From the NCBI GenBank assembly GCA_949290295.1, contig CASERH010000001.1:67969-131968 (forward strand): DNA of 64,000 bases, read 5' to 3'. Below the pieces are notes generated by a model that saw only the letters and a list, made by a program, of their open reading frames with translations, was not told where the DNA came from and searched no databases. A program made the position numbers and the translations under genes. Origin of the DNA: an uncultured Pseudomonadota bacterium. Its GTDB lineage: Bacteria > Pseudomonadota > Alphaproteobacteria > RF32 > CAG-239. Shown one piece after another: positions 5,080 through 39,162 of the stretch. Numbering within the stretch: the stretch's first letter is position 1; each line of letters begins with the position of its first letter.

Positions 5080-5206
5080 CTTATTTATCTGTTTTTTTGT
5101 AGTTTAGAATCTATTTATCAAAAACACAATGCCAAAATCTTTGTATTTTTTTAATAATATTAGAATATACTCCGTTCATCTATGCAAAAAAAGAAAGAAT
5201 TCAACC

Positions 5207-7279
5207 ATGGCGGAAGAAGAAAACACCAAAGAAAATTCAGAAGAGTCTCTTTCTGCGGCGGCAGAAGAAGATGCTGTTTTGGCACCAGCGGAAACTTTAG
5301 ATAAAGATACACAAGAAAAAGCTGTTTCTGACAACACATATTTGGTAAAAGAACGTTTTGAAATTGACTATAGTCATCCTTTGCCGGAATTAAACGCCAA
5401 CGGGGCCAAGGCCTACATGGTCAAAGATAAAATAAATCCACAGCGTGAACTTTTTGCCCTTCTGTGCGACAACAACTTTCCGCCCAGACTTTCCATGTTG
5501 CCCTATTTGAAATCAATAGAACACCCGAATTTGCTAAATCTGGTGGATTACAGTGTTGTAGACTATAAGCCGGAAAAGACAATGAACATGGCATTAATAT
5601 ACAGTCGTCCGACCGGCCCAAAGGTCTCCCAGGCAATCCCAAAAGAAAAACCAAGCTTTGAAAAATTTAAATCCTTGGTACTGTCGTTAGTTTCCGGCTG
5701 TGAAGCTCTGAAAAACTACAATCTAACTCACCGAGCCATTCGCATGGACAACATCTTTTTTAAAGATGAGAAGGGCTCTGAACTCGTGTTAGGGGATTGC
5801 GCAGCATCATTTCCTGCCCTATACCAGCCTAATGCCTATGAAACCCAGGAGAGCCTATTATGCATACCCCAAGGACGCGGGCAAGGAAGCAGCGGTGACG
5901 ATGTTTACTCTGCCGGAGTTGTTTTATTAGGGCTTGCTTTAGGCCACGAAATTGCTCCCAAATGTTCGTGTCCGGAGTTACAGCGTCTAAAACTAAAAAA
6001 AGGTTCTTTGGCAACCCTTTCTGATGGAGAAAAAATTCCCGGTCAAATTATGCCTCTTTTGAAAGGAATGTTAGAAGACAGTATTGAAAGTCGTTGGAAC
6101 AGCTCGCAAATTTACAATTATCTTGACGGAAAGAATCCAACCTTTTCCTCTGAGCCAGGAGATCGCTCCATGAGAGCCTTAAGCATTGGCGGAGAAAAAT
6201 ATTACACGGCCAAATCCGTAGCTTTGGCAATATTGGAAAATCCGGCAGACGGCCTAAGTGTTATTAAAAGCGGCAAACTTTTGGAGTGGATAAAGAACGG
6301 CCTTGAAAACGAAAAACTCCACAATAAAATAGAACGATTAATCAACGCAGAGAAAGAAGGAGAATCAAACAGATTGCTTTTGCCGCAAATCTGCATTTAC
6401 TTAGACTATAGTTTGCCGATCAAGTGTGATACCATGTATGTTTTTCCGAGTGGTCTTCCCAAAGCCATATTCCATAGCTTAAAAACAGGTAGATCTTTGG
6501 AGCCCTTCCACCAAATTTTATCTGGAGATTTAATCAAAATCTGGTACCAAGAGCAACCCTATTTACACGCTCCTGCAAACAGTAATGAATTTAGAGTTTA
6601 TCTAAGCCGCAATGATTATGGTTATGGCATCGACCGTATCATTTATGATTTTGACGATGATTTGCCCTGTACCAGTCCCCTAATTGGCAAAGAGTTTGTA
6701 AACACCCCATCAAAATTATTAAAAGCTCTGGATTCGAACTATTCAGAAAACAAAGAAGACAAGCCATACGACAAAAATATCATAGCCTATCTGCGCAGCA
6801 AGATGGGCAAAAAAATAGATGGCATATTAACCGATATCAACGCCAATCAAGATGCCCTACAAATATCGGCTGTCATGAGATTGTATGCCAATATTCAAAA
6901 CAAAACAGGTCCGGTTCAACTTCTAAACCTGACCAAATGGTTGGTAAAAACTGCCAAGCCGATTATAATGAATTATCATAATACGAAATACCGTAAATAT
7001 TTGGAACAAGAGACCATAAAAATTTCCAAAAGCGGCAAAATTATAGAGCTTTACGAAATTCTTGAAAACGAGGAGGCTCAAAAGAAGGACCGAACGGAAT
7101 ACGCTTCTGTTTTGAAAAAAGTGAACATTTTGGTAACCGAACGCAACCGTATTTTGCAAGGGAGCCCGAAACTAGATGAAGAATCCAGAGAGCTGGCTAT
7201 AAAATTTGGCTCGATTCTTTCAATTTTAACCATGTTGAGTTCATTTATTCTCAGCATTATTTATTGGGTGTTTAAATGA
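5207..7279 (+). CDS. Eukaryotic-like Ser/Thr protein-kinase-fold protein (likely pseudokinase) with a C-terminal TM anchor
   Basis: HRAIRMDNIFF aligns to the HRDLKPENILL catalytic loop, with the catalytic Asp replaced by Ala. GDC replaces DFG. DDVYSAGVVLLGL matches subdomain IX (DxWSxG). The C-terminal FGSILSILTMLSSFILSIIYWVF is hydrophobic. The ORF track starts at 5129, but that N-terminus translates an AT-rich promoter, and MAEEEN at 5207 is more plausible. Confidence 0.55.
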   Translation: MAEEENTKENSEESLSAAAEEDAVLAPAETLDKDTQEKAVSDNTYLVKERFEIDYSHPLPELNANGAKAYMVKDKINPQRELFALLCDNNFPPRLSMLPYLKSIEHPNLLNLVDYSVVDYKPEKTMNMALIYSRPTGPKVSQAIPKEKPSFEKFKSLVLSLVSGCEALKNYNLTHRAIRMDNIFFKDEKGSELVLGDCAASFPALYQPNAYETQESLLCIPQGRGQGSSGDDVYSAGVVLLGLALGHEIAPKCSCPELQRLKLKKGSLATLSDGEKIPGQIMPLLKGMLEDSIESRWNSSQIYNYLDGKNPTFSSEPGDRSMRALSIGGEKYYTAKSVALAILENPADGLSVIKSGKLLEWIKNGLENEKLHNKIERLINAEKEGESNRLLLPQICIYLDYSLPIKCDTMYVFPSGLPKAIFHSLKTGRSLEPFHQILSGDLIKIWYQEQPYLHAPANSNEFRVYLSRNDYGYGIDRIIYDFDDDLPCTSPLIGKEFVNTPSKLLKALDSNYSENKEDKPYDKNIIAYLRSKMGKKIDGILTDINANQDALQISAVMRLYANIQNKTGPVQLLNLTKWLVKTAKPIIMNYHNTKYRKYLEQETIKISKSGKIIELYEILENEEAQKKDRTEYASVLKKVNILVTERNRILQGSPKLDEESRELAIKFGSILSILTMLSSFILSIIYWVFK

Positions 7280-7755
7280 TAAAACCATTAAGAACGCGCC
7301 AACCGGCTAAAGCGAAAATAAAGTTCAATCTTTTGCAAAAGATTCTACTTCTTTTGGGATTGGTTATTTTGGTAATAACGGCCTTACCGGCAGTTGTAAT
7401 CTTAATCATCGGACTGCTGCCGACAATCACAATTATCTTGATAGATTCAAAAAATACCAGCAAACTGACAATGGTAGGTTGTTTTAATTTGGCCGGAGTT
7501 TTTGTTTGCCTGATGAATATTTTTAATCAATTTAACCTTAATCATGCCATTACAATTCTTGGCAATGTTTTCAATATAATCATCATGCTGGGAGCCGCGG
7601 CTTTAGGAATGGTTCTATATTATGAGTTGCCAAATCTTTTTCTGTTCATCTCCAAGGCATCAGCCCAGAGACGCCTTCGCAACATTGACAACAAGCTCGA
7701 AAAAATTGCCGATGAGTGGGGGCAAGAATGTATTGCTGAAGTAAATCAAAAATAA
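7276..7755 (+). CDS. Polytopic membrane protein, translationally coupled to the kinase-like gene
   Basis: ATGA start/stop overlap with the upstream gene. At least four TM helices. No family recognised. Confidence 0.4.
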   Translation: MIKPLRTRQPAKAKIKFNLLQKILLLLGLVILVITALPAVVILIIGLLPTITIILIDSKNTSKLTMVGCFNLAGVFVCLMNIFNQFNLNHAITILGNVFNIIIMLGAAALGMVLYYELPNLFLFISKASAQRRLRNIDNKLEKIADEWGQECIAEVNQK

Positions 7756-8821: not shown

Positions 8822-9793
8822 TTAGATATTTTCTAAAACACCCATCAATTGTTTGAAATCTGTTGGAAAATAAGATTCAAAAAACATTTGTTTTTGAGTT
8901 TTTGGATGAATAAAGCCGAGGCTTTTGGCGTGCAGGGCTTGCCTTGGAAAATTATTAATAAAATCTCTTTTATCTGAAGGAATGGCCTTATTCGTAATTT
9001 TTTTTGCTTTAACATAGAGCTGGTCACCCACAAGATTACAACCGATTCTGCTCATATGCACTCTGATTTGGTGGGTTCGTCCGGTTTCAAGGTTACATTT
9101 AACAAGAGAAGCAACATTCTTGTAATTTTTAATGGTTTGATAGTGTGTCACGGCATGTTTGCCATTTTTTTGCACAACGGCCATTTTCTTGCGATCATAA
9201 GGACTACGACCTATATCGGCGTCAATTATACCATTAAGCGGGTTAGGCACCCCAAAAACAACGGCAAAATAGGTTCTTTCAATAGAGTGTTCGGCAAACT
9301 GAGCGCACAAATGCTGATGCGCGGCATCATTTTTTGCCACCACCAAAAGACCTGAAGTATCTTTATCTATCCGATGCACAATTCCCGGACGTTTCACCCC
9401 GCCGATACCGGAGAGATCTTTGCAATGGTAGAGCAAGGCATTAACCAAGGTTTTATCTGGAGCTCCTGGAGCCGGATGAACGGTCATTCCGGCAGGTTTA
9501 TTAACCACGATAATGTCTTCGTCTTCATAGATGATATCAAGCGGGATATTTTGAGGTTGCGGTTCGGCATCAACTGCAGGAGGAACAAGAATTTGGTAGA
9601 TGTCACCTTCCTTTACCTTAAAAGAGTTATCTCCAATGGTGTCTTCGTCACAAGTAACATTACCCAAGGCAATAAGACGCTGCACTTGGGAGCGAGAAAC
9701 ATCAGGAAAACAATCGCTTAAAAACTTATCGATTCTTTTTCCCTTATAATCTTTATTAACCATTGGTGTGGTATAAATAACCGCATCAGACAT
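8822..9793 (-). CDS. rluD: 23S rRNA pseudouridine synthase, RluD/RluA family
   Basis: S4 domain at the N-terminus. Catalytic motif HRIDKDTSGLLVVAKN. Adjacent to rpoH, as in many alphaproteobacteria. Confidence 0.8.
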   Translation of the reverse strand: MSDAVIYTTPMVNKDYKGKRIDKFLSDCFPDVSRSQVQRLIALGNVTCDEDTIGDNSFKVKEGDIYQILVPPAVDAEPQPQNIPLDIIYEDEDIIVVNKPAGMTVHPAPGAPDKTLVNALLYHCKDLSGIGGVKRPGIVHRIDKDTSGLLVVAKNDAAHQHLCAQFAEHSIERTYFAVVFGVPNPLNGIIDADIGRSPYDRKKMAVVQKNGKHAVTHYQTIKNYKNVASLVKCNLETGRTHQIRVHMSRIGCNLVGDQLYVKAKKITNKAIPSDKRDFINNFPRQALHAKSLGFIHPKTQKQMFFESYFPTDFKQLMGVLENI

Positions 9794-9868: not shown

Positions 9869-10144
9869 ATGGACAAACTCAAATTAATTAAAACTGTTGT
9901 TGTTATTTTAACTTTTTTATTGGTTTTTGGCATATTAACAGCACTGGGAAGTATTTACAAGAAAGTATCAGCACCGGCAAAAGAGATAGAAAACATTGAC
10001 CTCAAACAACCAACCGGCAGCAGCATAGAAGATTTTAAGGTAGAAAACGGCAAGCTCTATCTCCTAGTTAAGTATGGTGGCGAAAACGACCGTATTTTAA
10101 TCATAGAGCCCGGCAAAGCTCCTGCGGAAATAAAGATTAATTAA
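9869..10144 (+). CDS. Small single-pass membrane protein; first gene of the accessory operon
   Basis: N-terminal TM (VVVILTFLLVFGILTALG) and a beta-rich C-terminus. No family recognised. Confidence 0.35.
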   Translation: MDKLKLIKTVVVILTFLLVFGILTALGSIYKKVSAPAKEIENIDLKQPTGSSIEDFKVENGKLYLLVKYGGENDRILIIEPGKAPAEIKIN

Positions 10145-10156
10145 AAGGAGGATGAA

Positions 10157-11005
10157 ATGGCTGAAACAGATTCTCAAGATGAATTTGACCGTCTTTTAGA
10201 TGACTTCATCTCTCAGCAACTGGCTGATGCGGAAGACAACCTCACAGACCTCGCTGAGCTGAAAGAAACAGGCAAACCAGCGCCTCAATATCCGGAAGAT
10301 GAAGCCGAAACTATTCAAAAGCTCTACCAAGAAGAGCGCCAGCTATACGACGCCTACCACAATTTTCGCAACGCTATAACAGCTGTTGCCAAAAATGCCA
10401 ACATGGAACCGCCGCATTTTGAATTTGGTGCCAGATATATCTACCCACGCTTTCGCCCTTCCAGAACCAAACAACTCAACCAAGATATCTTCAGTGGTTG
10501 GGAGCTCTTGGCCATGGCGCAACCGGTCAGACTGTCATCTCTGCCGGCCAACGCCTCGGATGAGCAAATTTTAAATTTTGCCGAAAAAACAACCGATGAG
10601 AACTTGCAATGCGCTCTAATTTCTTATGTCGAAATCTTAATAGAGCTGGATGGTTGCGAAATTGCCTACAATATGCGCAAAGCCAAAGCCGAAAAGCGCA
10701 AAATAGAAAAAGAGATTTTTGAGGAACACCAACGCCGCAAAGAGCGGATGAAAAAGTATATTGAAGCCATCGAGGCACAGCATTTTCCGATAGATGCGGA
10801 AAGATTGGTCAACAACTTTTTCAAAAGCGTACGCAAAGATCCCGAAGGCGCACAAAAGATATTAGAAACGAATCCGGCCACCTTTGCGCCCATCCAGGTA
10901 GAAAAGATTCCGCCACGCTTTTTTGGGATGATAAAGCCCAAACCGGAAGACGGAATCAGAGTAAATAAAGAAATCGGAAAATTTTTGAAGAATTTGAAGG
11001 TCTAA
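10157..11005 (+). CDS. Hypothetical acidic cytoplasmic protein of 282 aa
   Basis: 13-nt spacing after the previous gene. Acidic N-terminus (DEFDRLLDDF) and a K/E-rich coiled region. No motif recognised. Confidence 0.35.
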   Translation: MAETDSQDEFDRLLDDFISQQLADAEDNLTDLAELKETGKPAPQYPEDEAETIQKLYQEERQLYDAYHNFRNAITAVAKNANMEPPHFEFGARYIYPRFRPSRTKQLNQDIFSGWELLAMAQPVRLSSLPANASDEQILNFAEKTTDENLQCALISYVEILIELDGCEIAYNMRKAKAEKRKIEKEIFEEHQRRKERMKKYIEAIEAQHFPIDAERLVNNFFKSVRKDPEGAQKILETNPATFAPIQVEKIPPRFFGMIKPKPEDGIRVNKEIGKFLKNLKV

Positions 11006-11083
11006 ATGGTACAAAAATATAGACAAAATTCAAATTTATGATAAGATATAGATAATATACTTTCACAAAGAAAGGAATTAACC

Positions 11084-12775
11084 ATGGCAAAAGAAACCTC
11101 CTCTCCACGCAAAGAAGCACAAGCAGCAGCCAACAGCGGTAGAAAAAGCGGAGAAGAAAACACAAGAACAACAAACAGAGCCCCAACGGAGGCAACCAGA
11201 CCTGTCACACCAACATCAGGGGCGGGAAGCACGCCTACCGGTAGTGGAGAAAGCGGCACAAGTAGCAGCCCCACCCCGCAGCAAAATGATGGAAATTCTG
11301 GGCAAAAACCCGTCACGGTTAATCAAGCAACTCCTCAACCCGATAAATCAACAGACCGAGAGTTTACCGCTGAAGATCTCTCCGATTATGTTGCCTCACT
11401 TGCCAAAAAAGACCCTAAAGAATTATCGGTTGAAGAATTAAATGTCCTCAAAGAAAACACCTCGGATCCTGAAGAAAGACAAAAATACGAGGATATGATA
11501 AACCAACGCAATCTTCCTGGAGACGGAAAGGCACCTGAAGCAGGAAAGATTGAAAAGACTGATGACCCTGATGATCCCAAAGAAGATGACGACAAATTTG
11601 ATATTCAACAAGGCGATTTCATTGAATTCTTAATGAAAGATGTAGTGTTGGCCGCAGCGGCTTGGGGAGGCAAGAAGGTTTCAGGCCAAGTTGGTCTTTG
11701 GACATACCGAGGTCTTTCTTGGGCATATCACAAAGTAGATGATAAACTCTATACTCCAGCTAAAAAAGAACTTGCGGAAGCCTGGGATAACCTAAAGAAA
11801 AACACCAAAGAGGCCTTCAGAACCGTAGAACAATACCAAGTAAAAGATACCTTAACTGGCGACAACAGCACCGTACAATTCACTCATGAAGTTTTAAAAG
11901 AGCACAACAAGGTTATTGACGATGCCTTAAAAAGTCCCAAAAGAATTGAAGCCTTTGGTCGTTTTGCCGCAGCCGTGGTCAATGGTAAGTTAAAGGAGGG
12001 AACTTACAATCAAAATGGCCATGCTGTTTGGTTTGATAAAGAAACCCGCACCACTATTCCGCTTGAAGGCAAAACAATGCAGGATCTCATTAAAATGGTG
12101 CAGGAAACATCTCAAGCCATAGACGCCTCAGACAGACCAGTCGGAGAAAAAACCGCCCTAAAAGACCTGGCAGCCAAAGACTTTTCGGTTATAGTCGGAA
12201 CCTACACCCTGCTTGAAGGCCAAAAAAACATCTTTATGTCCAACATGGCCACCGCCACACTTCTGCAAATGAAGGCGGAAAATAAAGATTATCAATACTC
12301 AAAAGAAGAGCTTGAGGCCATGAAAAATCGTGCCGCCATAACCTTTTTCACCGAGCTGAGAAAAATAAGAAACGGTCAAAGCCAGTTCAAAACGGTTGAG
12401 GAATTTTTGGAAGCCAGCGGCAAAGCTGTCCAAACAGCCTACAACAATGTTGAAAAAGGACGCTATGATGAAAAAGGCAAAATGCCGCCAGCTAATGCAG
12501 AGTTAGTCCTGCTCAACAACCTCAACACATTGCAACGCCAAGAAAATCCCCAGGACATGTTAGCAGAGGCCATGCTGTTTAGCGAGACAATGAGAAAGCT
12601 ACAAGAGCGCCACAATAACGTGATTGCCCAAGAGGAGGCCGCTCGCAATGCACGAACTGGTAGAGGTAGAGAAGACAGAAGAACAAACGGAGATAGAGGA
12701 AACAATGGCGGTAGAGAAACCGGTGGCGATAGAGGAACCGGCGGTGGCAGAAGAAACAGCGGAGGAAGAGATTAG
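11084..12775 (+). CDS. Hypothetical 563-aa protein with a disordered S/T/P/G-rich N-terminus and a C-terminal RGG/GGR repeat tail
   Basis: First 100 aa are low-complexity (TPTSGAGSTPTGSGESGTSSSPTP). C-terminus is RTGRGREDRRTNGDRGNNGGRETGGDRGTGGGRRNSGGRD. The middle is a globular helical domain. Confidence 0.4.
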   Translation: MAKETSSPRKEAQAAANSGRKSGEENTRTTNRAPTEATRPVTPTSGAGSTPTGSGESGTSSSPTPQQNDGNSGQKPVTVNQATPQPDKSTDREFTAEDLSDYVASLAKKDPKELSVEELNVLKENTSDPEERQKYEDMINQRNLPGDGKAPEAGKIEKTDDPDDPKEDDDKFDIQQGDFIEFLMKDVVLAAAAWGGKKVSGQVGLWTYRGLSWAYHKVDDKLYTPAKKELAEAWDNLKKNTKEAFRTVEQYQVKDTLTGDNSTVQFTHEVLKEHNKVIDDALKSPKRIEAFGRFAAAVVNGKLKEGTYNQNGHAVWFDKETRTTIPLEGKTMQDLIKMVQETSQAIDASDRPVGEKTALKDLAAKDFSVIVGTYTLLEGQKNIFMSNMATATLLQMKAENKDYQYSKEELEAMKNRAAITFFTELRKIRNGQSQFKTVEEFLEASGKAVQTAYNNVEKGRYDEKGKMPPANAELVLLNNLNTLQRQENPQDMLAEAMLFSETMRKLQERHNNVIAQEEAARNARTGRGREDRRTNGDRGNNGGRETGGDRGTGGGRRNSGGRD

Positions 12776-13263
12776 TGAAAAAAATCTACAAAATCTTTAG
12801 AACAAGCTTAATTGGAATACTCTGGACATACCTTTTCCTTATTGCCGCCAATTATACGATGTATCAGTTATGGAGTTTCAATTTCATGTCTGCCCGCAGT
12901 TGGCAAACAATTTCTCGTTTTTGGGAAAGCGGCGGAGTTATAAACACAACAGCAGACTACGTCTTTTTGCTAATGCTTTTTGCTCTGCCTTTTTTATGGA
13001 TTTGGGGCTGGATAAAAGCGCTAAAAATAGATTATTTGAGCATTTTTCTCTATCCAATTAATGCTTATAACCGCTACATCATCAACAAATATGGTCACGA
13101 TTCCTCAAGAATAGTTTTGAAGAATCTAAAATCCAGCCAAAAAATGATAGAAGAAATAAAAAGTCAGCTGGAATCCATAAAACCGGCAAAGACCAAAGAA
13201 GTTGGCAACATTCGTGCCGAGGTACAAAAACAACTAGAAAAATTAAATACCCCAAAACACTAA
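12775..13263 (+). CDS. Polytopic membrane protein, paralog A
   Basis: GTG start overlapping the previous stop (TAGTG). Its N-terminal 90 aa align to the N-terminus of the next gene (I..W..LFL...W.F....W....W.SG.VI....F.L....W..GW.AL). Confidence 0.45.
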   Translation: MKKIYKIFRTSLIGILWTYLFLIAANYTMYQLWSFNFMSARSWQTISRFWESGGVINTTADYVFLLMLFALPFLWIWGWIKALKIDYLSIFLYPINAYNRYIINKYGHDSSRIVLKNLKSSQKMIEEIKSQLESIKPAKTKEVGNIRAEVQKQLEKLNTPKH

Positions 13264-13322
13264 ACAGTTATTAACCAATTTTGTGCTAGAATACAAAATA
13301 AAAACGTTGGAGAGCCGAGTAT

Positions 13323-14585
13323 TTGAAACCGCTTTTAATTTTAATACGAATAGCCTTTGTAGGTATCTTCTGGAGCATTTTGTTTCTAGAAGGTATTCGT
13401 GTTATTATGCTGACCAACTGGCATTTTGATATTTTGCGCATAGATCACTGGCTGTATGCCTGGAATTTATGGCTTTCTGGCTGGGTCATTGATGACCCTA
13501 AAGAATGGGCCTTTATCCTGATAATCTTGACTTTTGTTCCTGTTTGGCTGACGGGCTGGACCGCCTTAAGCCTAATTCACTGGGGTAAAATTATAGCAAA
13601 CGTACTTGAGCTGCCAATCAAATTGTTCAATAAGTTATTTGAAAAACAAGTCAAAAAAATTGCCAATACAGCCAGTGTCAAGGTTGTAAAGAAAAAAAGG
13701 TCCTACAAAGAGATTCGCCCGCGCAGCATTCGTCCACCTCTGGAAGAAAGCGCCTACGCCCTGCCGGCAGACAAAAAGGCGGCTCTTTCCGGTATAGCTC
13801 CCAAGAGCATCCCCATTTCCAAGCCCGCCAATAACATCACCAAAGAGGTTGATGCGCCTGTTGAGTTTAGCCATTCTCTGTTTAAGTTCGATGACGACGA
13901 CAACAGCGGATTTGACTTTGATTTATTTGATGAAACTCCCAAAGAAGAGCCTGCAAAACAAGAGCCAACCCCAACAAAAGAATCCGCAAAACAAGAGAAC
14001 AAAGCTCCAAACACAAAAGCACAAAGGAATGACAATAAGGGCAAAGGTGGTCAAAAGAACATCTCCTCCCCCGCACCTCATGGCAGTACCAATTCAACCT
14101 TAGAGGTCCTGAAACAGAAAGGATATGAAGTCATCACGGGAGCCACCATAAAGAGCACGCTTATAGATTTTATAGGTGTTTCGGGCACTCAGATTTGCCT
14201 TTGCTTAAACGATAAAGAACCGGGAGATTGGTTGGCGGATGAAGAGCGTTTCAATGATGAAGAACCTCTGTGGTTTTCAGAAAGTTCGCACAGAATTTCT
14301 CCTGTCAGAAAAATAGATATTGCGCGTTTAATTTTAACGGATAAGCTAACCGAAGCCGAGATGTCTTTCAAGGTAGAAGCTTATGTTATTGAACAAATCG
14401 GCAATATAATCAACGCGGAGGATATGTTTGATATTTGGGATAATATGAACATTCATGTTACCAGAATTGACAGAGGAACCCCCAAAGAAATAAAGTTATT
14501 TAATAAAACACTGGAAGAAGCCGAAGGTAAAATTGATAAGGCTGATTTTGATAAAGTTAGAAAACTAATTCGCAGTATTGCATAA
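13323..14585 (+). CDS. Membrane protein, paralog B, with a low-complexity linker and a C-terminal cytoplasmic domain; candidate T4CP partner
   Basis: TTG start 13 nt after a GGAGAG RBS. TM N-domain homologous to paralog A. K/E/P-rich linker and D/F-rich acidic patch (FKFDDDDNSGFDFDLFDE). It sits immediately upstream of the T4CP. Confidence 0.45.
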   Translation: MKPLLILIRIAFVGIFWSILFLEGIRVIMLTNWHFDILRIDHWLYAWNLWLSGWVIDDPKEWAFILIILTFVPVWLTGWTALSLIHWGKIIANVLELPIKLFNKLFEKQVKKIANTASVKVVKKKRSYKEIRPRSIRPPLEESAYALPADKKAALSGIAPKSIPISKPANNITKEVDAPVEFSHSLFKFDDDDNSGFDFDLFDETPKEEPAKQEPTPTKESAKQENKAPNTKAQRNDNKGKGGQKNISSPAPHGSTNSTLEVLKQKGYEVITGATIKSTLIDFIGVSGTQICLCLNDKEPGDWLADEERFNDEEPLWFSESSHRISPVRKIDIARLILTDKLTEAEMSFKVEAYVIEQIGNIINAEDMFDIWDNMNIHVTRIDRGTPKEIKLFNKTLEEAEGKIDKADFDKVRKLIRSIA

Positions 14586-14598
14586 AAAAGAGGAATAA

Positions 14599-16866
14599 AT
14601 GGCAGTAGAGAAAAAAGGAGAAGAATGGGAAGAATATAACAGTGCCGTCCGCTGGATGGTAATAACGGTTATTATCTCCACTCTCATAACCATATTTTTA
14701 GCTTTGGTTTCAATGCCGTTAGGATACCTTATCGGCACGGGTATTTCAAAAGAAAGCTTAGGGGATGTTTCCCGCTTTTTTGACCTTGTATTCAATAAAC
14801 CTGGCTATCTTTATTCTCGCTATTGGAACTGGATAAAACAAGTTTTTAATTACCACGGTCCTTTTTCTGTAAGCCTGTGGATTCCTATTTTGCCCTTTAT
14901 CAGCCTCCCGGTTGGTTTAATTTTTGGGGTCATTACTAATCCATACAGATTCCAATCAAACATCCACGGCTCTGCCCGCTTGGCTACGGAAAAAGATATC
15001 AAAAAGATGGAACTGTTGGGATTCGATGGCTTTTGCCAAGTGGTTGGCAAATTCAACAATAAGCTTCTACTGTTGAAAGAAACGCTTTCCACGCTTTGTT
15101 GCGCACCTCCGGGAACCGGTAAAACAGCAGGAGTTGTTGTTCCGACAATTTTTCATTCACCGACCTTAAGCATCATCGTAAACGACCCCAAGCCGGAATT
15201 GTGTTTTCAAACATCCGGTGCCAGAGCCAAGGTTGGTCCTGTTTTTATCATCAACTGGGGTATGGAAGATAATCCTGCGGAAGGCATATACTACCCAAGT
15301 TGGAATCCTCTTTCTCCCGGTGCGGTACCGGCGCCTGGACCTTCCAGAGATATGTATGTAGATTCCATGTGCAAGGTTTTGGTAGAAGACCCCAAAGGAG
15401 GAGCAGACCCTCACTGGTCGACAACTGGTCGTGCGGCCCTAACCGGCTTTATCCACTTTATAGTTTCCAAGTGCGAAAAAGCAAGAGCTAATGACTACTT
15501 TATCGGCCGAGTTTATGAAGGCAAGTTAGACGAAGAAGATAAAAAGGTTCTGGAAGGCTACTATTTGGAAATGAATGATCCTGCAGCCGCCAGAGCTCTT
15601 CAAAATTTAAGAAACAATACCCTAAACATAGACAACTATTTACCGATTGGTACCTGGGCTTTGTTGCCGGAAAAATGGATTGGGCGAGAAGCCTGCATAG
15701 CCATGATTTTGGAGTGGATTACAGAGGCACAAATTAAACAATCTCAGGATATCAAACGCCGTATGGATGAAGGCGACCAAATGGCGGCCATGGCAGACCC
15801 CATGAGAGATTTGTTGGAGGAAGCTATTGAAGAGGCTCGTAAATTTGGCTACACGCAACGCTGTATCGTTGAGTTGAGCCAGTTAAGCTCTATGCCGGAT
15901 AAAGAAAGAGGCTCTGTTCTTTCAACCGCTTTTGCCGGCATCAACATCTTCAAAAACTCCGCCGTGGTAGCCCGTACAAGCTTCAGCGATTTGGCCTTCA
16001 AAGACTTGCGAGGACTAAAAGACCCCATTACCGGGGAATTTAAGCCTATTTCCGTTTATCTTTCGGTAAACCAAGTAGATGCCAGAGCTTTGAGTGTAAT
16101 TTCAGGAACATTCATTGACCTGATGTCCTCTTATCTGATAGCAAATCCACCCAAATTTAAGAATCCGACCGACGGTCAGATGGGTCCCTACTCCTGCCTA
16201 TTTGTACTAGACGAGTTTCCAACCATGCCCAAACTACGAGCCGTTATCGACGGGCCGGCAGTTGGACGTGGCCAAAAAGTATCATACTTGCTGATTGGCC
16301 AAGATTTGGGCCAAATATCCGGTAAATATGGTAAAGATGACCTCGAAACGGTTATCTCCACAACAGCCTGTAAGGTTATCTTGTCCCAAAACAACGAGCA
16401 AACAGCCCAACGTTTCTCAAAAATGATTGGCAACAAAACTGTCCAAACAACGTCTTACTCAAAGAACGAAGGTGGTTTTGGAAAGGGTGTAAACCCCTTC
16501 TCTAAAAACGTAAGCTACCAGTTACAAGGTGTTTCGGTTATATCTACAACACAACTATTAAGCTTGCCAATGCTAAAACAAGTTGTTTTGATGCAAAGTT
16601 ACATCGACAGGCCGATCATGGCAGATTCTCCTCGTTGGTACTTGGATAAAAAGATGAAGGCTCTGCGCAACCTTCCACCGGCACCAAATGTCCCAGACTG
16701 GATTGTTGCTCAAAGAGAAGACATTAATGATGATATGTTGGCCAAACTGGGTATAGACTATGATCCAAACGAAGATTTTGATGATTCCGAGTTTGCAGAA
16801 GATGAGGAGTATGATGAATCTTCTGAAGAAGCAGAAGACACCTCTACCGAGCAAGCCCCTCAATAG
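14599..16866 (+). CDS. Type IV secretion coupling protein (T4CP), VirD4/TraG/DotL family ATPase
   Basis: Two N-terminal TM helices. HGSARLATEKDIKKMELL matches the VirD4 HGSARWA box. Walker A is CCAPPGTGKTAGVVVPTI. FVLDEFPTMPKL is the Walker B box FLLDEF, and LLIGQDLGQI is the T4CP IGQ/Q motif. C-terminal acidic tail is DDSEFAEDEEYDESSEEAEDTSTEQ. Confidence 0.8.
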   Translation: MAVEKKGEEWEEYNSAVRWMVITVIISTLITIFLALVSMPLGYLIGTGISKESLGDVSRFFDLVFNKPGYLYSRYWNWIKQVFNYHGPFSVSLWIPILPFISLPVGLIFGVITNPYRFQSNIHGSARLATEKDIKKMELLGFDGFCQVVGKFNNKLLLLKETLSTLCCAPPGTGKTAGVVVPTIFHSPTLSIIVNDPKPELCFQTSGARAKVGPVFIINWGMEDNPAEGIYYPSWNPLSPGAVPAPGPSRDMYVDSMCKVLVEDPKGGADPHWSTTGRAALTGFIHFIVSKCEKARANDYFIGRVYEGKLDEEDKKVLEGYYLEMNDPAAARALQNLRNNTLNIDNYLPIGTWALLPEKWIGREACIAMILEWITEAQIKQSQDIKRRMDEGDQMAAMADPMRDLLEEAIEEARKFGYTQRCIVELSQLSSMPDKERGSVLSTAFAGINIFKNSAVVARTSFSDLAFKDLRGLKDPITGEFKPISVYLSVNQVDARALSVISGTFIDLMSSYLIANPPKFKNPTDGQMGPYSCLFVLDEFPTMPKLRAVIDGPAVGRGQKVSYLLIGQDLGQISGKYGKDDLETVISTTACKVILSQNNEQTAQRFSKMIGNKTVQTTSYSKNEGGFGKGVNPFSKNVSYQLQGVSVISTTQLLSLPMLKQVVLMQSYIDRPIMADSPRWYLDKKMKALRNLPPAPNVPDWIVAQREDINDDMLAKLGIDYDPNEDFDDSEFAEDEEYDESSEEAEDTSTEQAPQ

Positions 16867-16875
16867 GATTCAAAA

Positions 16876-17430
16876 ATGTGGGAGTGGTCCAAATCACGAA
16901 AAAAAAACATTCACGAAGGGTCTTTGAAAAACCGCTTTGAAGACCTTATCTCTCCACCCTCGGCATCACCTTCTGACATTGAAATACCATCTCCGGAGCA
17001 GATGAAGGAGCTTGTTCTGAGCGAAATAAAAAGAGAAAATCTCCTCAACATTGAACTAAAAAAATGCACTTATCATCCGCAAACATGGAATGAGATGACC
17101 AAAAGCTCAACACAATACCTAAGAATGAGAAAAACATTTCTTAAACTAATAGGATATTCTGCACAAGAAGATTGCAGAAAAATAGGATTTGATGAAGAAG
17201 ATATAGAGCTACTAAAGGAAAAAATATCTCCGGAAAACTATAACACCCACATAAAGATTCCGCTTGAATTTGGTGGAAAATTAGACATGGATAACCTTTG
17301 CCTGATAAAAACGCACCCTCTGCATGACCAAATTCACCACTTGATAGACATTCAAATCAGTTGTGGTTTTTTGCAAAAATATAAATTTATTTATATTCCT
17401 TGGTTTGAAGGAAAAATTTATCATGATTAA
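16876..17430 (+). CDS. HNH/colicin-E9-type DNase toxin domain protein
   Basis: The C-terminal THIKIPLEFGGKLDMDNLCLIKTHPLHDQIHH aligns with the colicin E9 DNase HNH motif [30 protein letters not shown]. It starts 10 nt after the T4CP stop. Confidence 0.65.
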   Translation: MWEWSKSRKKNIHEGSLKNRFEDLISPPSASPSDIEIPSPEQMKELVLSEIKRENLLNIELKKCTYHPQTWNEMTKSSTQYLRMRKTFLKLIGYSAQEDCRKIGFDEEDIELLKEKISPENYNTHIKIPLEFGGKLDMDNLCLIKTHPLHDQIHHLIDIQISCGFLQKYKFIYIPWFEGKIYHD

Positions 17431-17869
17431 TTCTTTACTATCTCAAGCTCAAAAAACAAAACACTTTATCAGTTTTTCACCTATGGAACCTGCTTCCATA
17501 GAGCAAACAAACCAAGAGCTCATAAGCTCAGGCACCCCGCCTCTCCCATCTGATTTTTGCGACTTTTTAAGCTTGTGCGACGGAATTTATTATGATGGAT
17601 TAGAACTTTTTGGCACCAAAGAACACCCTCGCCCAACCAAAGAATATATTTTTACAAATATAATAAAGGCCAACAAACCTTTTTCAGAATACAGTTTTTT
17701 CTCACAAAAACTCATCATCGGAGGCATGTCTGAAAACTTTATTATATACGATTCCAAAAACAAGCTGTTTGCAGTCATAGACAGAATAAACCTATGCTCC
17801 CAGATAGAATTTTCTTCTTTTGAGGAGCTGTTGTCTCACCTTTTGCGCCATTGCGAAATAGAGCTTTAA
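17423..17869 (+). CDS. SUKH (SMI1/KNR4) superfamily immunity protein
   Basis: [26 protein letters not shown] matches the SUKH-1 LP.dY..FL...NGG...l.lfG signature. The ATG at 17423 overlaps the toxin stop (ATGATTAA). The ORF-track start at 17363 is probably too far upstream. Confidence 0.6.
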
Positions 17870-18048
17870 TCAGAAGATGAATCCTCTTGATCTTCAAGTT
17901 GTCTCAAATCTTCCTCATCAATCTCCGTTGCCTCAAACCGATATTTCTCATTAAACCAATTACCAAGATCTATATCGGCACACCTTTTGCTGCAAAACGG
18001 ACGATATTTCATATCTGTCACTTCTTTTTTACAAATCGGGCATTTCAT
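17866..18048 (-). CDS. yacG: DNA gyrase inhibitor YacG (zinc finger)
   Basis: CPICKK...[12 protein letters not shown] pattern in a 60-aa protein with an acidic tail. Confidence 0.75.
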
Positions 18049-20829: not shown

Positions 20830-21462
20830 CTACTGAAAAGTCCAAGTAATTACATTTTTCTCATCATCGGCGCAACTTTCAGATGCTTTGACAGGAGAAA
20901 TGGGTAAAGCATCAGCATCTCCGAACTTAACACCATTAATGGGCAATTTAAACGTATTGTTATTTATTTTAAGCTGAAAGAGATCTGCGCCATCGATGCC
21001 ACTCCAATTTATCTGGCTTAAATTCATGCATGTGCGCAAAGAAAGCTTATTAAAGGTGACATCAAAATAATCATCGCCCAAAGAGGAAGTTTCTATGATA
21101 ACTTCTCCGTTAAGCCTATGAACAATTTCTCCATTAACCAGCATCTGAGAAGGAATAAGTTGCTCTTCCTTCAATTTTTGCGGCGTCATTTCAGAAGAAG
21201 AAAGTTCTGCGTAATTACCTTCCAAGCGATAACGCGTTGCAATATTTTTTTGAATTTCTCTAATTTCGTTAACTACCATATTTTGCCTAAACATCTCATA
21301 CATATTACCCACAAGAGATATAGCAGCAACGGTCAACACTATCACAACAGATATTGCGGCAATAGCTTCCATCATGGTTGTCCCTTTTTGATCAGATTTA
21401 AGCATACAATCTCCTACCAGTTCTTTATCACTAAGGATATCATTAAAAGTTTCAGTAAACAA
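20830..21462 (-). CDS. Prepilin-type N-terminal cleavage/methylation domain protein (type IVb-like pilin or pseudopilin)
   Basis: A 27-aa leader ending in KG, then TTMMEAIAAISVVIVLTVAAISLVG with Glu at +5 and a hydrophobic helix. This is the class III signal peptide architecture with a long leader. Confidence 0.5.
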   Translation of the reverse strand: MFTETFNDILSDKELVGDCMLKSDQKGTTMMEAIAAISVVIVLTVAAISLVGNMYEMFRQNMVVNEIREIQKNIATRYRLEGNYAELSSSEMTPQKLKEEQLIPSQMLVNGEIVHRLNGEVIIETSSLGDDYFDVTFNKLSLRTCMNLSQINWSGIDGADLFQLKINNNTFKLPINGVKFGDADALPISPVKASESCADDEKNVITWTFQ

Positions 21463-38148: not shown

Positions 38149-39162
38149 ATGGTTTTCTTAAAAAGAGTATTGTTGGGATTAGGTGCTTTATTTTTGATTT
38201 TTCTGGGCGGAGCAGGAACTAGGAGCAACAGTGTATTTGTCCAAGGCGGCGGTTTTTTGGGGCTTATCATTGGGCTGGTTGTTTTATACATTTTTGCCAA
38301 GATGGCTTGGCGGGCCATGGGGTGTCTGCCTTCATTATTTTTAATTGCCGCAATAATTGTCTTTATTCTTTACGCCATAGGAGCCTTTAGTGACGGTTTG
38401 GGCGGTGTCGGCAAGAATGTAAAAAGCTTTTTAGGGCAGGGTATGGCATCATCTCAAAGCAGCATGGCTTCTGCAAAGATCAACCTGCTGGATGAAGAGG
38501 AGTTTGATGTGCCGATTTCAGAAAGTTTCTCTCCGGCAGCTGAAGAAGAAATAGTGATTGAAGAACAGGTAGCACAGCCGCAACAACCGCAACAGGTTCA
38601 AGAGGAAAGCTTTTTTGATAAATTGTTTGGAGGCTCTTCATCAAACAATCAGGCAGCAACATTCAACCCAAAAAATTATCCGGCCATTTACTCAACCGCT
38701 AAAGTTATAAGCGGTGATACCCTAGTTATAAGCGGTCATTACTTTCGGCTTTTCGGTATAGATGCGCCTGAAAACAACCAAACCTGCGCGGATGGAAATG
38801 GTCGTCCATACCATTGTGGACAGCAGGCAGCGGCATGGTTGAAGAGTTGGTTGCAAGATAATGAGTTAGAGTGCCGGGTTATTCAAAGAGATACAAGTGG
38901 CAACATGGTAGGCGTTTGCTCACTGGGAGCCTATGATATTGGTGCGGCTTTGGTAAATGCCGGATGGGCTGTTGTTTACAGCAAACATACAGATATCTAT
39001 ACACCCTACCAGACACAAGCCCAAAATAATGGTAGAGGTTTGTGGCAGGGAGAGTTTTACATGCCCTGGGATTGGCGCAAAATTCAGGCTCGCAAACCCA
39101 AAATCAAGGTGATAAACCAAAAACCCAAACGCAAAAGAACATTAATAAATCCGCTAGGCTAA
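38149..39162 (+). CDS. Membrane-anchored staphylococcal-nuclease (SNase/thermonuclease)-like nuclease
   Basis: N-terminal TM helices and a Q/P-rich linker. The C-terminal domain has GDT...RLFGIDAPE...G.......D.YGR...GLW SNase signatures. Confidence 0.6.
   Translation: MVFLKRVLLGLGALFLIFLGGAGTRSNSVFVQGGGFLGLIIGLVVLYIFAKMAWRAMGCLPSLFLIAAIIVFILYAIGAFSDGLGGVGKNVKSFLGQGMASSQSSMASAKINLLDEEEFDVPISESFSPAAEEEIVIEEQVAQPQQPQQVQEESFFDKLFGGSSSNNQAATFNPKNYPAIYSTAKVISGDTLVISGHYFRLFGIDAPENNQTCADGNGRPYHCGQQAAAWLKSWLQDNELECRVIQRDTSGNMVGVCSLGAYDIGAALVNAGWAVVYSKHTDIYTPYQTQAQNNGRGLWQGEFYMPWDWRKIQARKPKIKVINQKPKRKRTLINPLG

What the first reader, a model, noticed from the sequence alone, without database searches (positions are those of the whole stretch)
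9869..17869. Eight-gene accessory operon built around an orphan VirD4-like coupling protein, ending in a DNase toxin and immunity pair
Eight tightly packed, same-strand genes lie between rluD and yacG, with stop/start overlaps and 10-13-nt spacers. They are a small TM protein, an acidic protein, a 563-aa RGG-tailed protein, two paralogous polytopic membrane proteins, a T4CP with an acidic C-tail, an HNH DNase and a SUKH immunity protein. The T4CP has the VirD4 HGSAR box, Walker A/B (LDEF) and the IGQDLGQI motif. No VirB/Tra/Dot structural genes are present anywhere in the 64 kb. A coupling protein directly linked to a nuclease effector with its own immunity gene suggests a contact-dependent or T4SS-delivered interbacterial toxin module, or a remnant of an ICE/RAGE-type element. 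Either would be unusual in an endosymbiont-like genome.
Basis: partly seen in the sequence, partly recalled or inferred. Interest (0 to 1): 0.85.

Follow-up and report, generated by a model that had tools for sequence, protein, structure and literature searches.

The report
Conserved coupling-protein operon, gut Alphaproteobacteria
This is not a stray mobile-element remnant: it is a vertically inherited, strongly conserved operon of abundant gut Alphaproteobacteria, in which a type IV secretion coupling ATPase sits beside a previously undescribed membrane partner and, in many species, a nuclease toxin with its antidote.

Summary
The eight ORFs exist as described. The 755-aa protein is a true VirD4/TraG coupling protein (T4CP; Pfam PF02534, E 1.9e-55). 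The 64-kb window is oriC-proximal housekeeping DNA with no VirB, Tra or Dot genes.

The interpretation needs revising.
- The organism is a gut alphaproteobacterium of the 'Azospirillum sp. CAG:260' group, not an endosymbiont.
- The locus is core, not accessory. Genes 1-6 sit beside rluD in 65 of the 80 species-representative loci fetched. The T4CP (median 83% identity) is more conserved than RpoH, RluD or RNase G.
- There are no att repeats, integrase or relaxase, and ORF5 has no plasmid or phage homologue.
- The oldest unit is ORF5 plus the T4CP. ORF5 has a two-helix membrane anchor and a restriction-endonuclease-like domain, and belongs to no Pfam family.
- That unit is often followed by the HNH-like protein and a SUKH/YrhA protein. 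This pair is ancestral and repeatedly lost.
- The T4CP is probably not an orphan. A sister clade has virB8-virB8-virB9-virB10-virB11 about 6 kb from the same module, arranged like the Rickettsiales rvh system.

Best reading: this is the coupling-complex locus of a dispersed chromosomal type IV secretion system (T4SS), with one nuclease effector and its immunity protein. Whether the window's own genome has the channel genes is untested.

The parts
9869..10144 (+). ORF1, 91 aa. Small protein with one N-terminal membrane segment; weak DUF6476 similarity.
   Evidence: ORF. DUF6476 at 20.6 bits, below the gathering score of 24. The precomputed hit on an orthologue is also weak; one hydrophobic segment. 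Present beside rluD in 69 of the 80 loci. Absent upstream of the module in distant lineages.
10157..11005 (+). ORF2, 282 aa. Acidic cytoplasmic protein. Conserved N-terminal DDEFDxLLDDFI motif, variable acidic linker, conserved helical C-terminal part.
   Evidence: alignment A4. No family in Pfam, NCBIfam, PADLOC or PHROGs. Conserved at 41-98% identity in the window's clade and at 36-42% in the sister clade.
11084..12775 (+). ORF3, 563 aa. Hypervariable, largely low-complexity or coiled protein. Only a GDFIEF motif and the hydrophobic helix after it are conserved; the RGG tail is species-specific.
   Evidence: A 437-755 aa ORF always fills this position. Identity is only 23-77% or undetectable. 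Conservation map.
12775..13263 (+). ORF4, 162 aa. Two-helix membrane protein, a paralogue of the ORF5 N-terminus that has lost the C-terminal domain.
   Evidence: 25% identity, E 8e-12; two hydrophobic segments. By my reading of the sequence, the sister-clade equivalent (371 aa, or 350 aa as called in L174) still carries a C-terminal domain like that of ORF5.
13323..14585 (+). ORF5, 420 aa. Two-helix membrane anchor, basic KKKSYKEIRPR motif, acidic-aromatic FDFDLFDE motif, variable linker, then a nearly invariant cytoplasmic domain of restriction-endonuclease-like (PD-(D/E)xK) fold. It is the constant partner of the T4CP.
14599..16866 (+). VirD4/TraG-family type IV coupling protein, 755 aa. 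Two N-terminal membrane segments, Walker A PPGTGKT, Walker B LDEF, acidic-aromatic C-terminal tail.
   Evidence: Median identity to orthologues is 83%. The nearest plasmid T4CPs are 34-35% identical and are the last gene of complete or near-complete virB clusters (virB2-B11 in Erythrobacter, virB8-B11 annotated in Microvirga).
16876..17430 (+). ORF7, 184 aa. Putative HNH (His-Me finger, colicin-DNase-like) nuclease with an invariant N-terminal MWEWS motif. Likely toxin or effector.
17423..17869 (+). ORF8, 148 aa from the ATG at 17423. SUKH-superfamily, YrhA-family protein; putative cognate immunity protein or inhibitor.
   Evidence: NCBIfam NF038335: 70.4 bits against a cutoff of 55. Pfam SMI1_KNR4 E 0.02, below the gathering score. 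Co-occurs with ORF7 in every locus complete enough to judge (26 loci of the first set).

Best explanation
The operon is the substrate-recruitment ('coupling complex') locus of a chromosomal, vertically inherited VirB/VirD4-type T4SS. The channel genes lie elsewhere in the genome, as in the Rickettsiales rvh 'archipelago'.

Proposed mechanism:
- The T4CP hexamer sits in the inner membrane.
- ORF5, anchored by two helices, places an endonuclease-fold domain with an invariant acidic loop next to the ATPase. It acts as a fixed auxiliary subunit.
- In this clade a truncated paralogue (ORF4), an acidic cytoplasmic protein (ORF2), a small one-span membrane protein (ORF1) and a fast-evolving protein (ORF3, an adaptor or a substrate) were added.
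- ORF7 is an HNH nuclease kept inactive in the producer by the SUKH protein ORF8. The T4CP recruits it for export, most plausibly as an antibacterial effector.

Shown: family membership of the T4CP, conservation and synteny, the ORF5-T4CP pairing, the fold-level assignments, and VirB8-B11 genes next to the module in a sister clade.

Inferred: physical interaction between the proteins, export of ORF7, its target, and the presence of channel genes in this particular genome.
For: - The T4CP passes Pfam gathering scores with intact motifs.
- Genes 1-6 are syntenic beside rluD in 65 of the 80 species-representative loci; the other loci are cut short or were not fully detected. The T4CP has 83% median identity, against RpoH 79%, RluD 67% and RNase G 58%.
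- ORF5 followed by the T4CP is found in at least six further lineages, in different housekeeping contexts. There the T4CP is 55-63% and ORF5 28-32% identical. Four of the five contexts read in detail also carry homologues of ORF7 and ORF8.
- Sister-clade contigs L103 and L174 carry virB8b, a 66-aa ORF, virB8a, virB9 (CagX), a 2205-aa protein with a VirB10/TrbI domain, and virB11. This cluster lies about 6 kb from the ORF4-like, ORF5-like, T4CP and ORF7-like genes, has uniform GC, and has no T4CP of its own.
- That VirB9 is 31-35% identical, and the window's T4CP about 35% identical, to the proteins of the same Erythrobacter and Microvirga virB/D4 clusters.
- Nuclease-inhibitor pairing: ORF8 is in the YrhA/SUKH family and ORF7 has an HNH pattern and fold.
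- T4SS-delivered nuclease effectors with immunity proteins are known (S. maltophilia TfdA, PMC11253643).
- T4CPs that work with auxiliary subunits are established (PMC12857230).
- Dispersed, duplicated rvh genes, including a virB8a-virB7-virB8b-virB9-virB10-virB11 islet, are described in PMC2653234.
Against: - No VirB gene lies in the 64-kb window, nor within 10 kb of the T4CP in any other locus. About 170 loci and 2.9 Mb were searched.
- The rest of this genome could not be searched.
- VirB4, VirB6 and VirB2 were not seen even in the sister clade.
- Many species keep a highly conserved T4CP without ORF7 and ORF8. The nuclease therefore cannot be the reason the T4CP is conserved.
- ORF5 shows no similarity to DotM or any other known T4CP partner.
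- ORF7 in this clade lacks the basic C-terminal tail seen in distant homologues.
Confidence: 0.55

Rival explanations
1. The T4CP is a true orphan. Together with ORF5 (and ORF4) it forms a self-contained inner-membrane translocase or DNA-processing machine that works without a VirB channel. It would move or process DNA (an endonuclease-fold domain, an HNH nuclease and a DNA-pumping ATPase), or export ORF7 only as far as the periplasm.
For: - ORF5 and the T4CP form an invariant pair in varied housekeeping contexts, with VirB genes nearby in only one lineage.
- Two nuclease-type folds sit beside a DNA translocase.
- The T4CP is as conserved as core housekeeping proteins.
- ORF5 homologues are absent from plasmids and phages.
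- Some distant ORF5-like genes stand alone.
Against: - The sister clade has a VirB8-B11 cluster with no T4CP of its own, 6 kb from this module.
- To my knowledge no T4CP has been shown to act without a channel in a Gram-negative envelope.
- The canonical (D/E)xK lysine is missing from the ORF5 domain and the residues at 297-299 vary in distant homologues, so nuclease activity is doubtful.
Confidence: 0.2
2. A DNA-transfer (conjugation-like) function. ORF5 would be a membrane-tethered nickase analogous to the restriction-endonuclease-fold MOBC relaxases, paired with its own T4CP as in CloDF13 MobB/MobC, and would mobilise chromosomal DNA through a T4SS.
For: - ORF5 has a PD-(D/E)xK-like fold.
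- MOBC relaxases (TraX of pAD1, MobC of CloDF13) belong to that superfamily (PMC12857230).
- The gene sits immediately beside the T4CP in all lineages.
Against: - No sequence similarity to any known family.
- The catalytic lysine is not conserved.
- A membrane-anchored relaxase is unprecedented.
- No oriT-like repeats were seen.
- The same domain also occurs in TPR-Roc-COR-TIR and AAA+ proteins unrelated to conjugation.
Confidence: 0.1
3. A conflict or defence module: a T4CP-like ATPase that senses incoming DNA at the membrane and triggers the nuclease effectors, with the SUKH protein as inhibitor.
For: - An HNH plus SUKH pair is typical of conflict systems (PMC3113570).
- The ORF5 domain recurs in TIR- and AAA+-containing giant proteins.
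- ORF3 is hypervariable.
Against: - No PADLOC hit for any of the eight proteins, apart from two marginal hits on ORF3 (E 8e-4 and 0.016).
- Fixed core location, universal presence and very slow evolution of the T4CP are unlike defence islands.
- The T4CP has all the hallmarks of a functional VirD4.
Confidence: 0.08
4. One reading: a decayed ICE/RAGE-type mobile element, or a recently inserted accessory island between rluD and yacG.
For: - A T4CP without neighbouring VirB genes superficially resembles a decayed element.
- ORF7 and ORF8 are patchily distributed and have lower GC (0.356 for 17-18 kb).
Against: - Genes 1-6 are present beside rluD in 65 of the 80 species-representative loci, and in the rest wherever the sequence reaches.
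- Strong purifying selection acts on the T4CP.
- No direct repeats, integrase or relaxase, and the only tRNAs are 38 kb away.
- GC of the operon (0.36-0.47) lies within the window's range of 0.33-0.51.
- ORF5 has no plasmid or phage homologue.
- ORF7 and ORF8 follow the T4CP, not yacG, and are found in deep lineages.
Confidence: 0.03

Closest known systems
Rickettsiales vir homolog (rvh) T4SS 'archipelago' (PMC2653234)
   Same: Chromosomal, vertically inherited and highly conserved, with T4SS genes dispersed among housekeeping genes. The sister-clade cluster virB8, small ORF, virB8, virB9, virB10, virB11 mirrors rvh islet C (virB8a-virB7-virB8b-virB9b-virB10-virB11), including the duplicated VirB8.
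   Different: In rvh, virD4 directly follows virB11; here the T4CP is detached and always preceded by ORF5. The organisms are extracellular gut bacteria. VirB10 is a 2205-aa giant with YD repeats and VirB9 carries a SPOR domain. All proteins score far below the NCBIfam equivalog cutoffs. The channel genes were not shown in the window's own genome.
Legionella Dot/Icm coupling complex (DotL with DotM, DotN, DotY, DotZ and IcmSW; PMC12857230)
   Same: A T4CP that works with a membrane-anchored partner and small acidic adaptors, and that has a C-terminal extension. From my own knowledge, the partner gene dotM (icmP) lies immediately upstream of dotL (icmO), which matches the order here.
   Different: ORF5 has no sequence or fold similarity to DotM. 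The T4CP here is of the VirD4/TraG type (PF02534).
Bacteria-killing T4SSs of Xanthomonadales and the S. maltophilia nuclease effector TfdA (PMC11253643; PMC13600162)
   Same: VirD4-dependent delivery of toxic effectors, each paired with an immunity protein. A nuclease effector is documented.
   Different: From my own knowledge, those effectors carry a C-terminal XVIPCD recognition domain and virD4 lies within the virB locus. ORF7 matches no Pfam family. The immunity protein here is a cytoplasmic SUKH type. The toxin is one conserved family, not a diverse arsenal.
Colicin and pyocin HNH DNases with their immunity proteins; SUKH immunity proteins of polymorphic toxin systems (PMC3113570)
   Same: The H-N-H metal-finger pattern aligns with pyocin AP41 and colicin E7/E9 DNase domains. 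An immunity-like gene lies immediately downstream and overlaps.
   Different: No receptor-binding or translocation domains and no polymorphic C-terminal cassettes. The family is restricted to this lineage (40 clusters). The immunity protein is SUKH/YrhA, not Im-type.
CloDF13 MobB (T4CP) with MobC, and pAD1 TraX (MOBC relaxases of PD-(D/E)XK fold; PMC12857230)
   Same: MOBC relaxases are restriction-endonuclease-fold proteins that act in T4SS-mediated transfer. From my own knowledge, CloDF13 also encodes its own T4CP (MobB) beside MobC.
   Different: Those are plasmid-borne and soluble with proven active sites. ORF5 is chromosomal and membrane-anchored, lacks the canonical lysine and shows no detectable sequence homology.

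Membership tests
Type IV coupling protein (VirD4/TraG, PF02534) | Profile match above the curated threshold | tested here: met
   PF02534 at 189 bits (gathering score 20.1), PF12696 at 81 bits, PF10412 at 62 bits. All NCBIfam equivalog models score far below their cutoffs, so this is a divergent subfamily.
Type IV coupling protein (VirD4/TraG, PF02534) | Walker A and B nucleotide-binding motifs and an N-terminal membrane anchor | tested here: met
   PPGTGKT and LDEF are readable in the translation and invariant across deep lineages. Two hydrophobic segments at residues 15-50 and 89-115.
Type IV coupling protein (VirD4/TraG, PF02534) | Encoded in a genome with a cognate VirB4-containing channel | tested here: inconclusive
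   None in the 64-kb window. VirB8 (two copies), VirB9, VirB10 and VirB11 lie next to the module in a sister clade. VirB4 was not seen anywhere.
HNH / His-Me finger nuclease (colicin-DNase type), for ORF7 | Beta-beta-alpha metal finger with catalytic His, Asn and His residues | tested here: met
   H125, N140, H150 and H154 are invariant in 20 and in 33 sequences. The model places them on strand 122-126, strand 141-145 and helix 149-162.
HNH / His-Me finger nuclease (colicin-DNase type), for ORF7 | Significant profile or fold match to known members | tested here: inconclusive
HNH / His-Me finger nuclease (colicin-DNase type), for ORF7 | Nuclease activity and toxicity | not testable with these tools
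   Requires expression and DNase assays.
SUKH / YrhA immunity proteins, for ORF8 | Profile match above the curated threshold | tested here: met
   NCBIfam NF038335 (YrhA family) at 70.4 bits against a cutoff of 55. Pfam SMI1_KNR4 reaches only 16 bits against a gathering score of 25.4.
SUKH / YrhA immunity proteins, for ORF8 | Lies immediately downstream of, and co-inherited with, a toxin gene | tested here: met
   Overlaps ORF7 by 8 nt. The two genes are present or absent together in every locus complete enough to judge, including distant lineages.
PD-(D/E)xK restriction-endonuclease-like fold, for the ORF5 C-terminal domain | Alpha-beta-beta-beta-alpha-beta core | tested here: met
PD-(D/E)xK restriction-endonuclease-like fold, for the ORF5 C-terminal domain | Catalytic D...(D/E)xK triad | tested here: not met
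   D282 is invariant. The position after strand 3 reads D297-K/R-E299 in this clade and varies in distant homologues. No conserved lysine lies two residues after an acidic residue. It may be an inactive or non-canonical variant.
Dot/Icm-type coupling complex (DotM-like partner) | Homology of the upstream membrane partner to DotM | tested here: not met
Integrative conjugative or mobilisable element (ICE, IME, RAGE) | Integrase or relaxase, att repeats, variable presence among relatives | tested here: not met
   No such families in or around the operon. No flanking direct repeats. The only tRNAs are at 55.9 kb. The locus is present in all 80 species-representative loci.
rvh-like dispersed chromosomal T4SS | VirB genes in separate chromosomal islets, with duplicated VirB8 | tested here: inconclusive
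   Met in the sister clade (L103 and L174). Could not be tested for the window's genome.
Known anti-phage defence systems (PADLOC) | Match of any component to a defence-system model | tested here: not met
   Seven of the eight proteins have no hit, and ORF3 has only two marginal hits (4TM effector E 8e-4, Cas1g E 0.016). The neighbouring kinase-like ORF matches generic kinase models.

The most novel reading that the evidence does not exclude
In the window's clade the T4CP has been domesticated. With ORF5 (and ORF4) it forms a channel-independent inner-membrane machine, the first T4CP shown to work without a type IV secretion channel. It would handle DNA or export the nuclease, and would be conserved as a near-housekeeping function in very abundant human gut bacteria.
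Probability: 0.2. Interest if true: 0.85.

Novelty: new variant of a known kind. Interest (0 to 1): 0.6.

Why it matters
These Alphaproteobacteria are among the commonest uncultured Proteobacteria of human and animal guts. One T4CP variant alone is indexed in 7040 assembly blocks. Nothing about their secretion systems turned up in the literature searched.

The locus points to three things:
- A dispersed, rvh-like chromosomal T4SS outside the Rickettsiales.
- A new, large and unannotated protein family (ORF5: more than 1000 sequences, no Pfam model) that is the fixed partner of a T4CP. This would be a new kind of coupling-complex subunit, built on an endonuclease fold.
- A candidate T4SS-delivered HNH toxin with a SUKH immunity protein. 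That would add contact-dependent killing by a T4SS to the weapons known in the gut.

If the channel proves to be absent, the case becomes more unusual still.

Tried and rejected
- FtsK replacement: rejected. A normal FtsK lies on the same contig as an ORF5-T4CP pair (L092).
- Defence system: the only PADLOC hits to the eight proteins are two marginal ones on ORF3.
- Phage or plasmid origin: ORF5 has no tblastn hit in either collection. The PHROGs hits for ORF7 are to families of unknown function.
- DotM-like partner: no sequence or fold match.
- Link between the T4CP's acidic tail and the presence of ORF7 and ORF8: none within the clade, with 16.1 against 14.1 acidic residues in the last 35. 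Only the distant L092, which lacks the pair, has lost the tail.
- Att-like repeats around the operon: none.
- Internal terminators and promoters: not above shuffled expectation.
- Literature searches for RF32 or CAG-239 secretion systems and for orphan T4CPs found nothing relevant.
It was reached through an exact-cluster look-up instead.
Full report
**What is in the window**

ORF listing confirms eight consecutive plus-strand ORFs between rluD (8822-9793, minus strand) and yacG (17866-18048, minus strand):

| Gene | Coordinates | Length |
|---|---|---|
| ORF1 | 9869-10144 | 91 aa |
| ORF2 | 10157-11005 | 282 aa |
| ORF3 | 11084-12775 | 563 aa |
| ORF4 | 12775-13263 | 162 aa |
| ORF5 | 13323-14585 | 420 aa |
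| T4CP | 14599-16866 | 755 aa |
| ORF7 | 16876-17430 | 184 aa |
| ORF8 | 17423-17869 | 148 aa |

- Junctions are tight: spacers of 12, 13 and 9 nt and overlaps of 1 and 8 nt. Two gaps are larger, at 78 and 59 nt.
- The 755-aa protein matches T4SS-DNA_transf (E 1.9e-55), TraG-D_C and TrwB_AAD_bind above the Pfam thresholds. It stays far below every NCBIfam equivalog cutoff, so it is a divergent VirD4-type T4CP.
- The HGSAR, PPGTGKT, LDEF and IGQDLGQI motifs are present. Hydropathy gives two N-terminal membrane segments.
- ORF4 and the ORF5 N-terminus are paralogues (E 8e-12), each with two membrane segments.
- ORF8 passes the NCBIfam YrhA-family (SUKH) cutoff.
- The rest of the window is oriC-proximal housekeeping: dnaB, rho, mnmE, mnmG, rsmG, parA, parB, radA, dnaX, a GyrB/ParE-type topoisomerase subunit, tsf. 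No VirB, Tra or Dot family was found.
- GC of the operon is unremarkable for the window. No direct repeats flank it.

**Whose genome it is**

The T4CP has homologues at 82-96% identity in more than 100 protein clusters. Sources name these 'Azospirillum sp. CAG:260' or '47_25', or uncultured Alphaproteobacteria. A scan of species-representative genomes found 179 carriers. All 80 fetched are gut, rumen or faecal metagenome-assembled genomes. One variant is indexed in 7040 assembly blocks and sits in the same eight-gene operon on a 2.04-Mb contig. Flagellar (FliX) and type IVb pilin-like genes lie nearby. The genome is not that of an endosymbiont.

**Core, not accessory**

- tblastn of the window's proteins against the 80 loci shows ORF1, ORF2, an ORF3-sized gene, ORF4, ORF5 and the T4CP in the same order beside rluD and rpoH, wherever the contig reaches far enough (65 loci show the full set).
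- Median identities to the window:

| Protein | Median identity |
|---|---|
| DksA | 89% |
| T4CP | 83% |
| YacG | 81% |
| RpoH | 79% |
| RluD | 67% |
| ORF5 | 61% |
| RNase G | 58% |
| ORF2 | 51% |
| ORF1 | 49% |
| ORF4 | 41% |
| ORF3 | 32% where detectable |

- The loci were chosen through the T4CP, which biases this comparison somewhat. The ranking within each genome still stands.
- ORF7 and ORF8 occur in 26 of the 80 loci. Where they are absent, the T4CP is the last gene and the downstream genes differ by lineage. The pair therefore travels with the T4CP, not with yacG.

**The individual proteins**

*ORF5*
- Alignments A2 and A3 show a two-helix anchor, an invariant KKKSYKEIRPR motif, an acidic-aromatic HSLFxFD...DFDFDLFDE motif and a variable charged linker.
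- The roughly 165-aa C-terminal domain is nearly invariant, including the stretch GDWLADEERFNDEEPLWFSESSHRISPVR.
- AlphaFold2 models that domain mostly at pLDDT 80-90, with alpha-beta-beta-beta-alpha-beta-alpha-beta order.
- The canonical (D/E)xK lysine is not conserved, so catalysis is uncertain.
- The family has 1061 members with no Pfam domain and 373 representative clusters.
- The domain also occurs inside TPR-Roc-COR-TIR giants and N-terminal to AAA+ ATPases.
- No plasmid or phage record encodes it.

*ORF7*
- Twenty orthologues share the invariant pattern PEN..H.K.P..FGG....N..L...P.H...H.
- The profile hits only the pyocin AP41 DNase, exactly on its HNH motif, at E 0.18.
- The model (pLDDT 85.6) has the expected beta-beta-alpha element.
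- I treat ORF7 as a probable HNH nuclease, not a proven one.

*ORF3*
- It is hypervariable. Only a GDFIEF motif and the hydrophobic helix after it are conserved, and the RGG tail is species-specific.

*ORF2*
- It has a conserved acidic-aromatic N-terminal motif and a conserved C-terminal part, and belongs to no known family.

**Deeper lineages**

- Contexts of distant ORF5 homologues and a metagenome scan with a T4CP alignment show ORF5-like followed by the T4CP as an invariant pair. There the T4CP is 55-63% and ORF5 28-32% identical to the window's.
- The pair sits among different housekeeping genes in each lineage.
- It is usually followed by a longer ORF7 homologue (230-349 aa) and an ORF8 homologue. 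In three of the four, the longer ORF7 forms keep an N-terminal MWDWS-type motif (MIWDWT in one) and a second WEWQ motif; the fourth (L093) lacks both. All four have the HNH domain and a basic C-terminal tail ending in ...MPGR, ...MMGR or ...GRSANI.
- The four-gene unit is therefore ancestral, and ORF7 and ORF8 have been lost repeatedly.
- ORF1 was not detected outside the window's clade. ORF2 is shared with the sister clade.
- By my reading of the sequence, the sister clade's ORF4 equivalent still carries an ORF5-like C-terminal domain.
- Two still more distant ORF5-like genes stand alone.
- FtsK is present beside one such pair, which rules out a simple FtsK substitution.

**Is the T4CP an orphan?**

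- The nearest plasmid T4CPs (34-35% identity; Erythrobacter, Microvirga and Sphingosinicella megaplasmids) in the two records inspected (Erythrobacter, Microvirga) end complete or near-complete virB clusters (virB2-B11 in Erythrobacter, virB8-B11 annotated in Microvirga).
- I used those VirB proteins as tblastn queries against all 2.9 Mb of fetched loci plus the window. One locus answered. L103, from a 53%-GC sister clade whose T4CP is 62% identical, carries VirB9 (CagX, with a SPOR domain) and two VirB8 genes about 6 kb from the module.
- Extending that contig gave virB8b, a 66-aa ORF, virB8a, virB9, a 2205-aa YD-repeat protein ending in a VirB10/TrbI domain, and virB11. flaF follows.
- This cluster has no T4CP of its own. 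It is transcribed divergently from the ORF4-like, ORF5-like, T4CP and ORF7-like genes.
- The order closely matches rvh islet C of Rickettsia, virB8a-virB7-virB8b-virB9b-virB10-virB11-virD4 (PMC2653234).
- That VirB9 is 31-35% identical to the VirB9 of the same two plasmid systems, and the window's T4CP is about 35% identical to their T4CPs, which fits common ancestry.
- I could not search the remainder of the window's genome, and VirB4, VirB6 and VirB2 were not seen anywhere.

**Synthesis**

The best-supported model, at about 0.55, is a coupling-complex locus of a dispersed chromosomal VirB/D4 T4SS.
- The T4CP and its fixed auxiliary subunit ORF5 form the conserved core.
- ORF1 to ORF4 are additions of this and the sister clade (ORF1 detected only in the window's clade), acting as adaptors, a scaffold or a substrate.
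- ORF7 and ORF8 are an HNH effector and its SUKH immunity protein.
- This is comparable in logic to the Dot/Icm coupling complex and to T4SS-delivered toxins such as S. maltophilia TfdA (PMC12857230, PMC11253643).
- The T4CP stays highly conserved where ORF7 and ORF8 are lost, so the nuclease is one cargo and not the purpose of the system.

The main rival, at about 0.2, is a channel-independent machine built from the T4CP and ORF5. Relaxase-like, defence and mobile-element readings are less likely, for the reasons given under each.

**Verdict**

It is a new variant of a known kind, of moderate to high interest.

Noticed in passing
window 5129-7279 (+) and 7276-7755 (+): A 716-aa kinase-like protein (Pkinase at 28.5 bits, below the gathering score; one C-terminal membrane segment) overlaps a 159-aa multi-span membrane protein. 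Both are syntenic upstream of rpoH, rluD and the operon in most loci of the clade, at 40-96% identity, but are absent from distant lineages.
   Followed up: partly
window 20830-21462 (-) and 54846-55778 (-): Two type IVb pilin-like genes with PilS_N and bundlin similarity. The second is fused to DUF805. They are scattered among housekeeping genes with no pilus assembly genes nearby.
   Followed up: no
L174 11521-18138 and L174 10001-11524 (same as L103 875-2398): In the sister clade the VirB10/TrbI domain sits at the end of a 2205-aa protein with YD and RHS-type repeats, and VirB9 carries a C-terminal SPOR (peptidoglycan-binding) domain. Both are unusual for T4SS core components.
   Followed up: partly
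P0368, P0390, P0426, P0428 (representative-library hits): The ORF5 C-terminal domain also occurs inside 1500-aa TPR-[domain]-Roc-COR-TIR proteins and N-terminal to AAA+ ATPases. It looks like an unannotated mobile domain used in conflict-type architectures.
   Followed up: partly
window 10157-10230 (ORF2 N-terminus), about 13860-13930 (ORF5 linker), about 16740-16866 (T4CP tail): Similar acidic-aromatic short motifs recur in three proteins of the operon: DDEFDxLLDDFI, FDFDLFDE and DFDDSEFAEDEEYDE. They may be docking motifs for a common, possibly basic, partner.
   Followed up: no
window 11084-12775 and orthologues: ORF3 is hypervariable in both sequence and length (437-755 aa) between otherwise well-conserved neighbours. 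This pattern is typical of surface-exposed or secreted proteins under diversifying selection.
   Followed up: partly
L085 13294-13860 (-): One strain has an extra 188-aa gene with a weak HNH_3 hit inserted just downstream of the ORF8 homologue. It is absent from otherwise identical loci L083 and L084.
   Followed up: no
L008 3620-8225: This locus shows an apparent duplication of the ORF2 and ORF3 segment: two 533-aa ORFs and a second 282-aa ORF. It could be real or an assembly artefact.
   Followed up: no
window 38149-39162 (+): A 337-aa protein with a staphylococcal-nuclease domain lies downstream of parB, separate from the operon.
   Followed up: no
window 17001-18000: The ORF7 and ORF8 segment has lower GC (0.356) than the T4CP gene (0.435-0.465), although the pair is ancestral to the module.
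   Followed up: no
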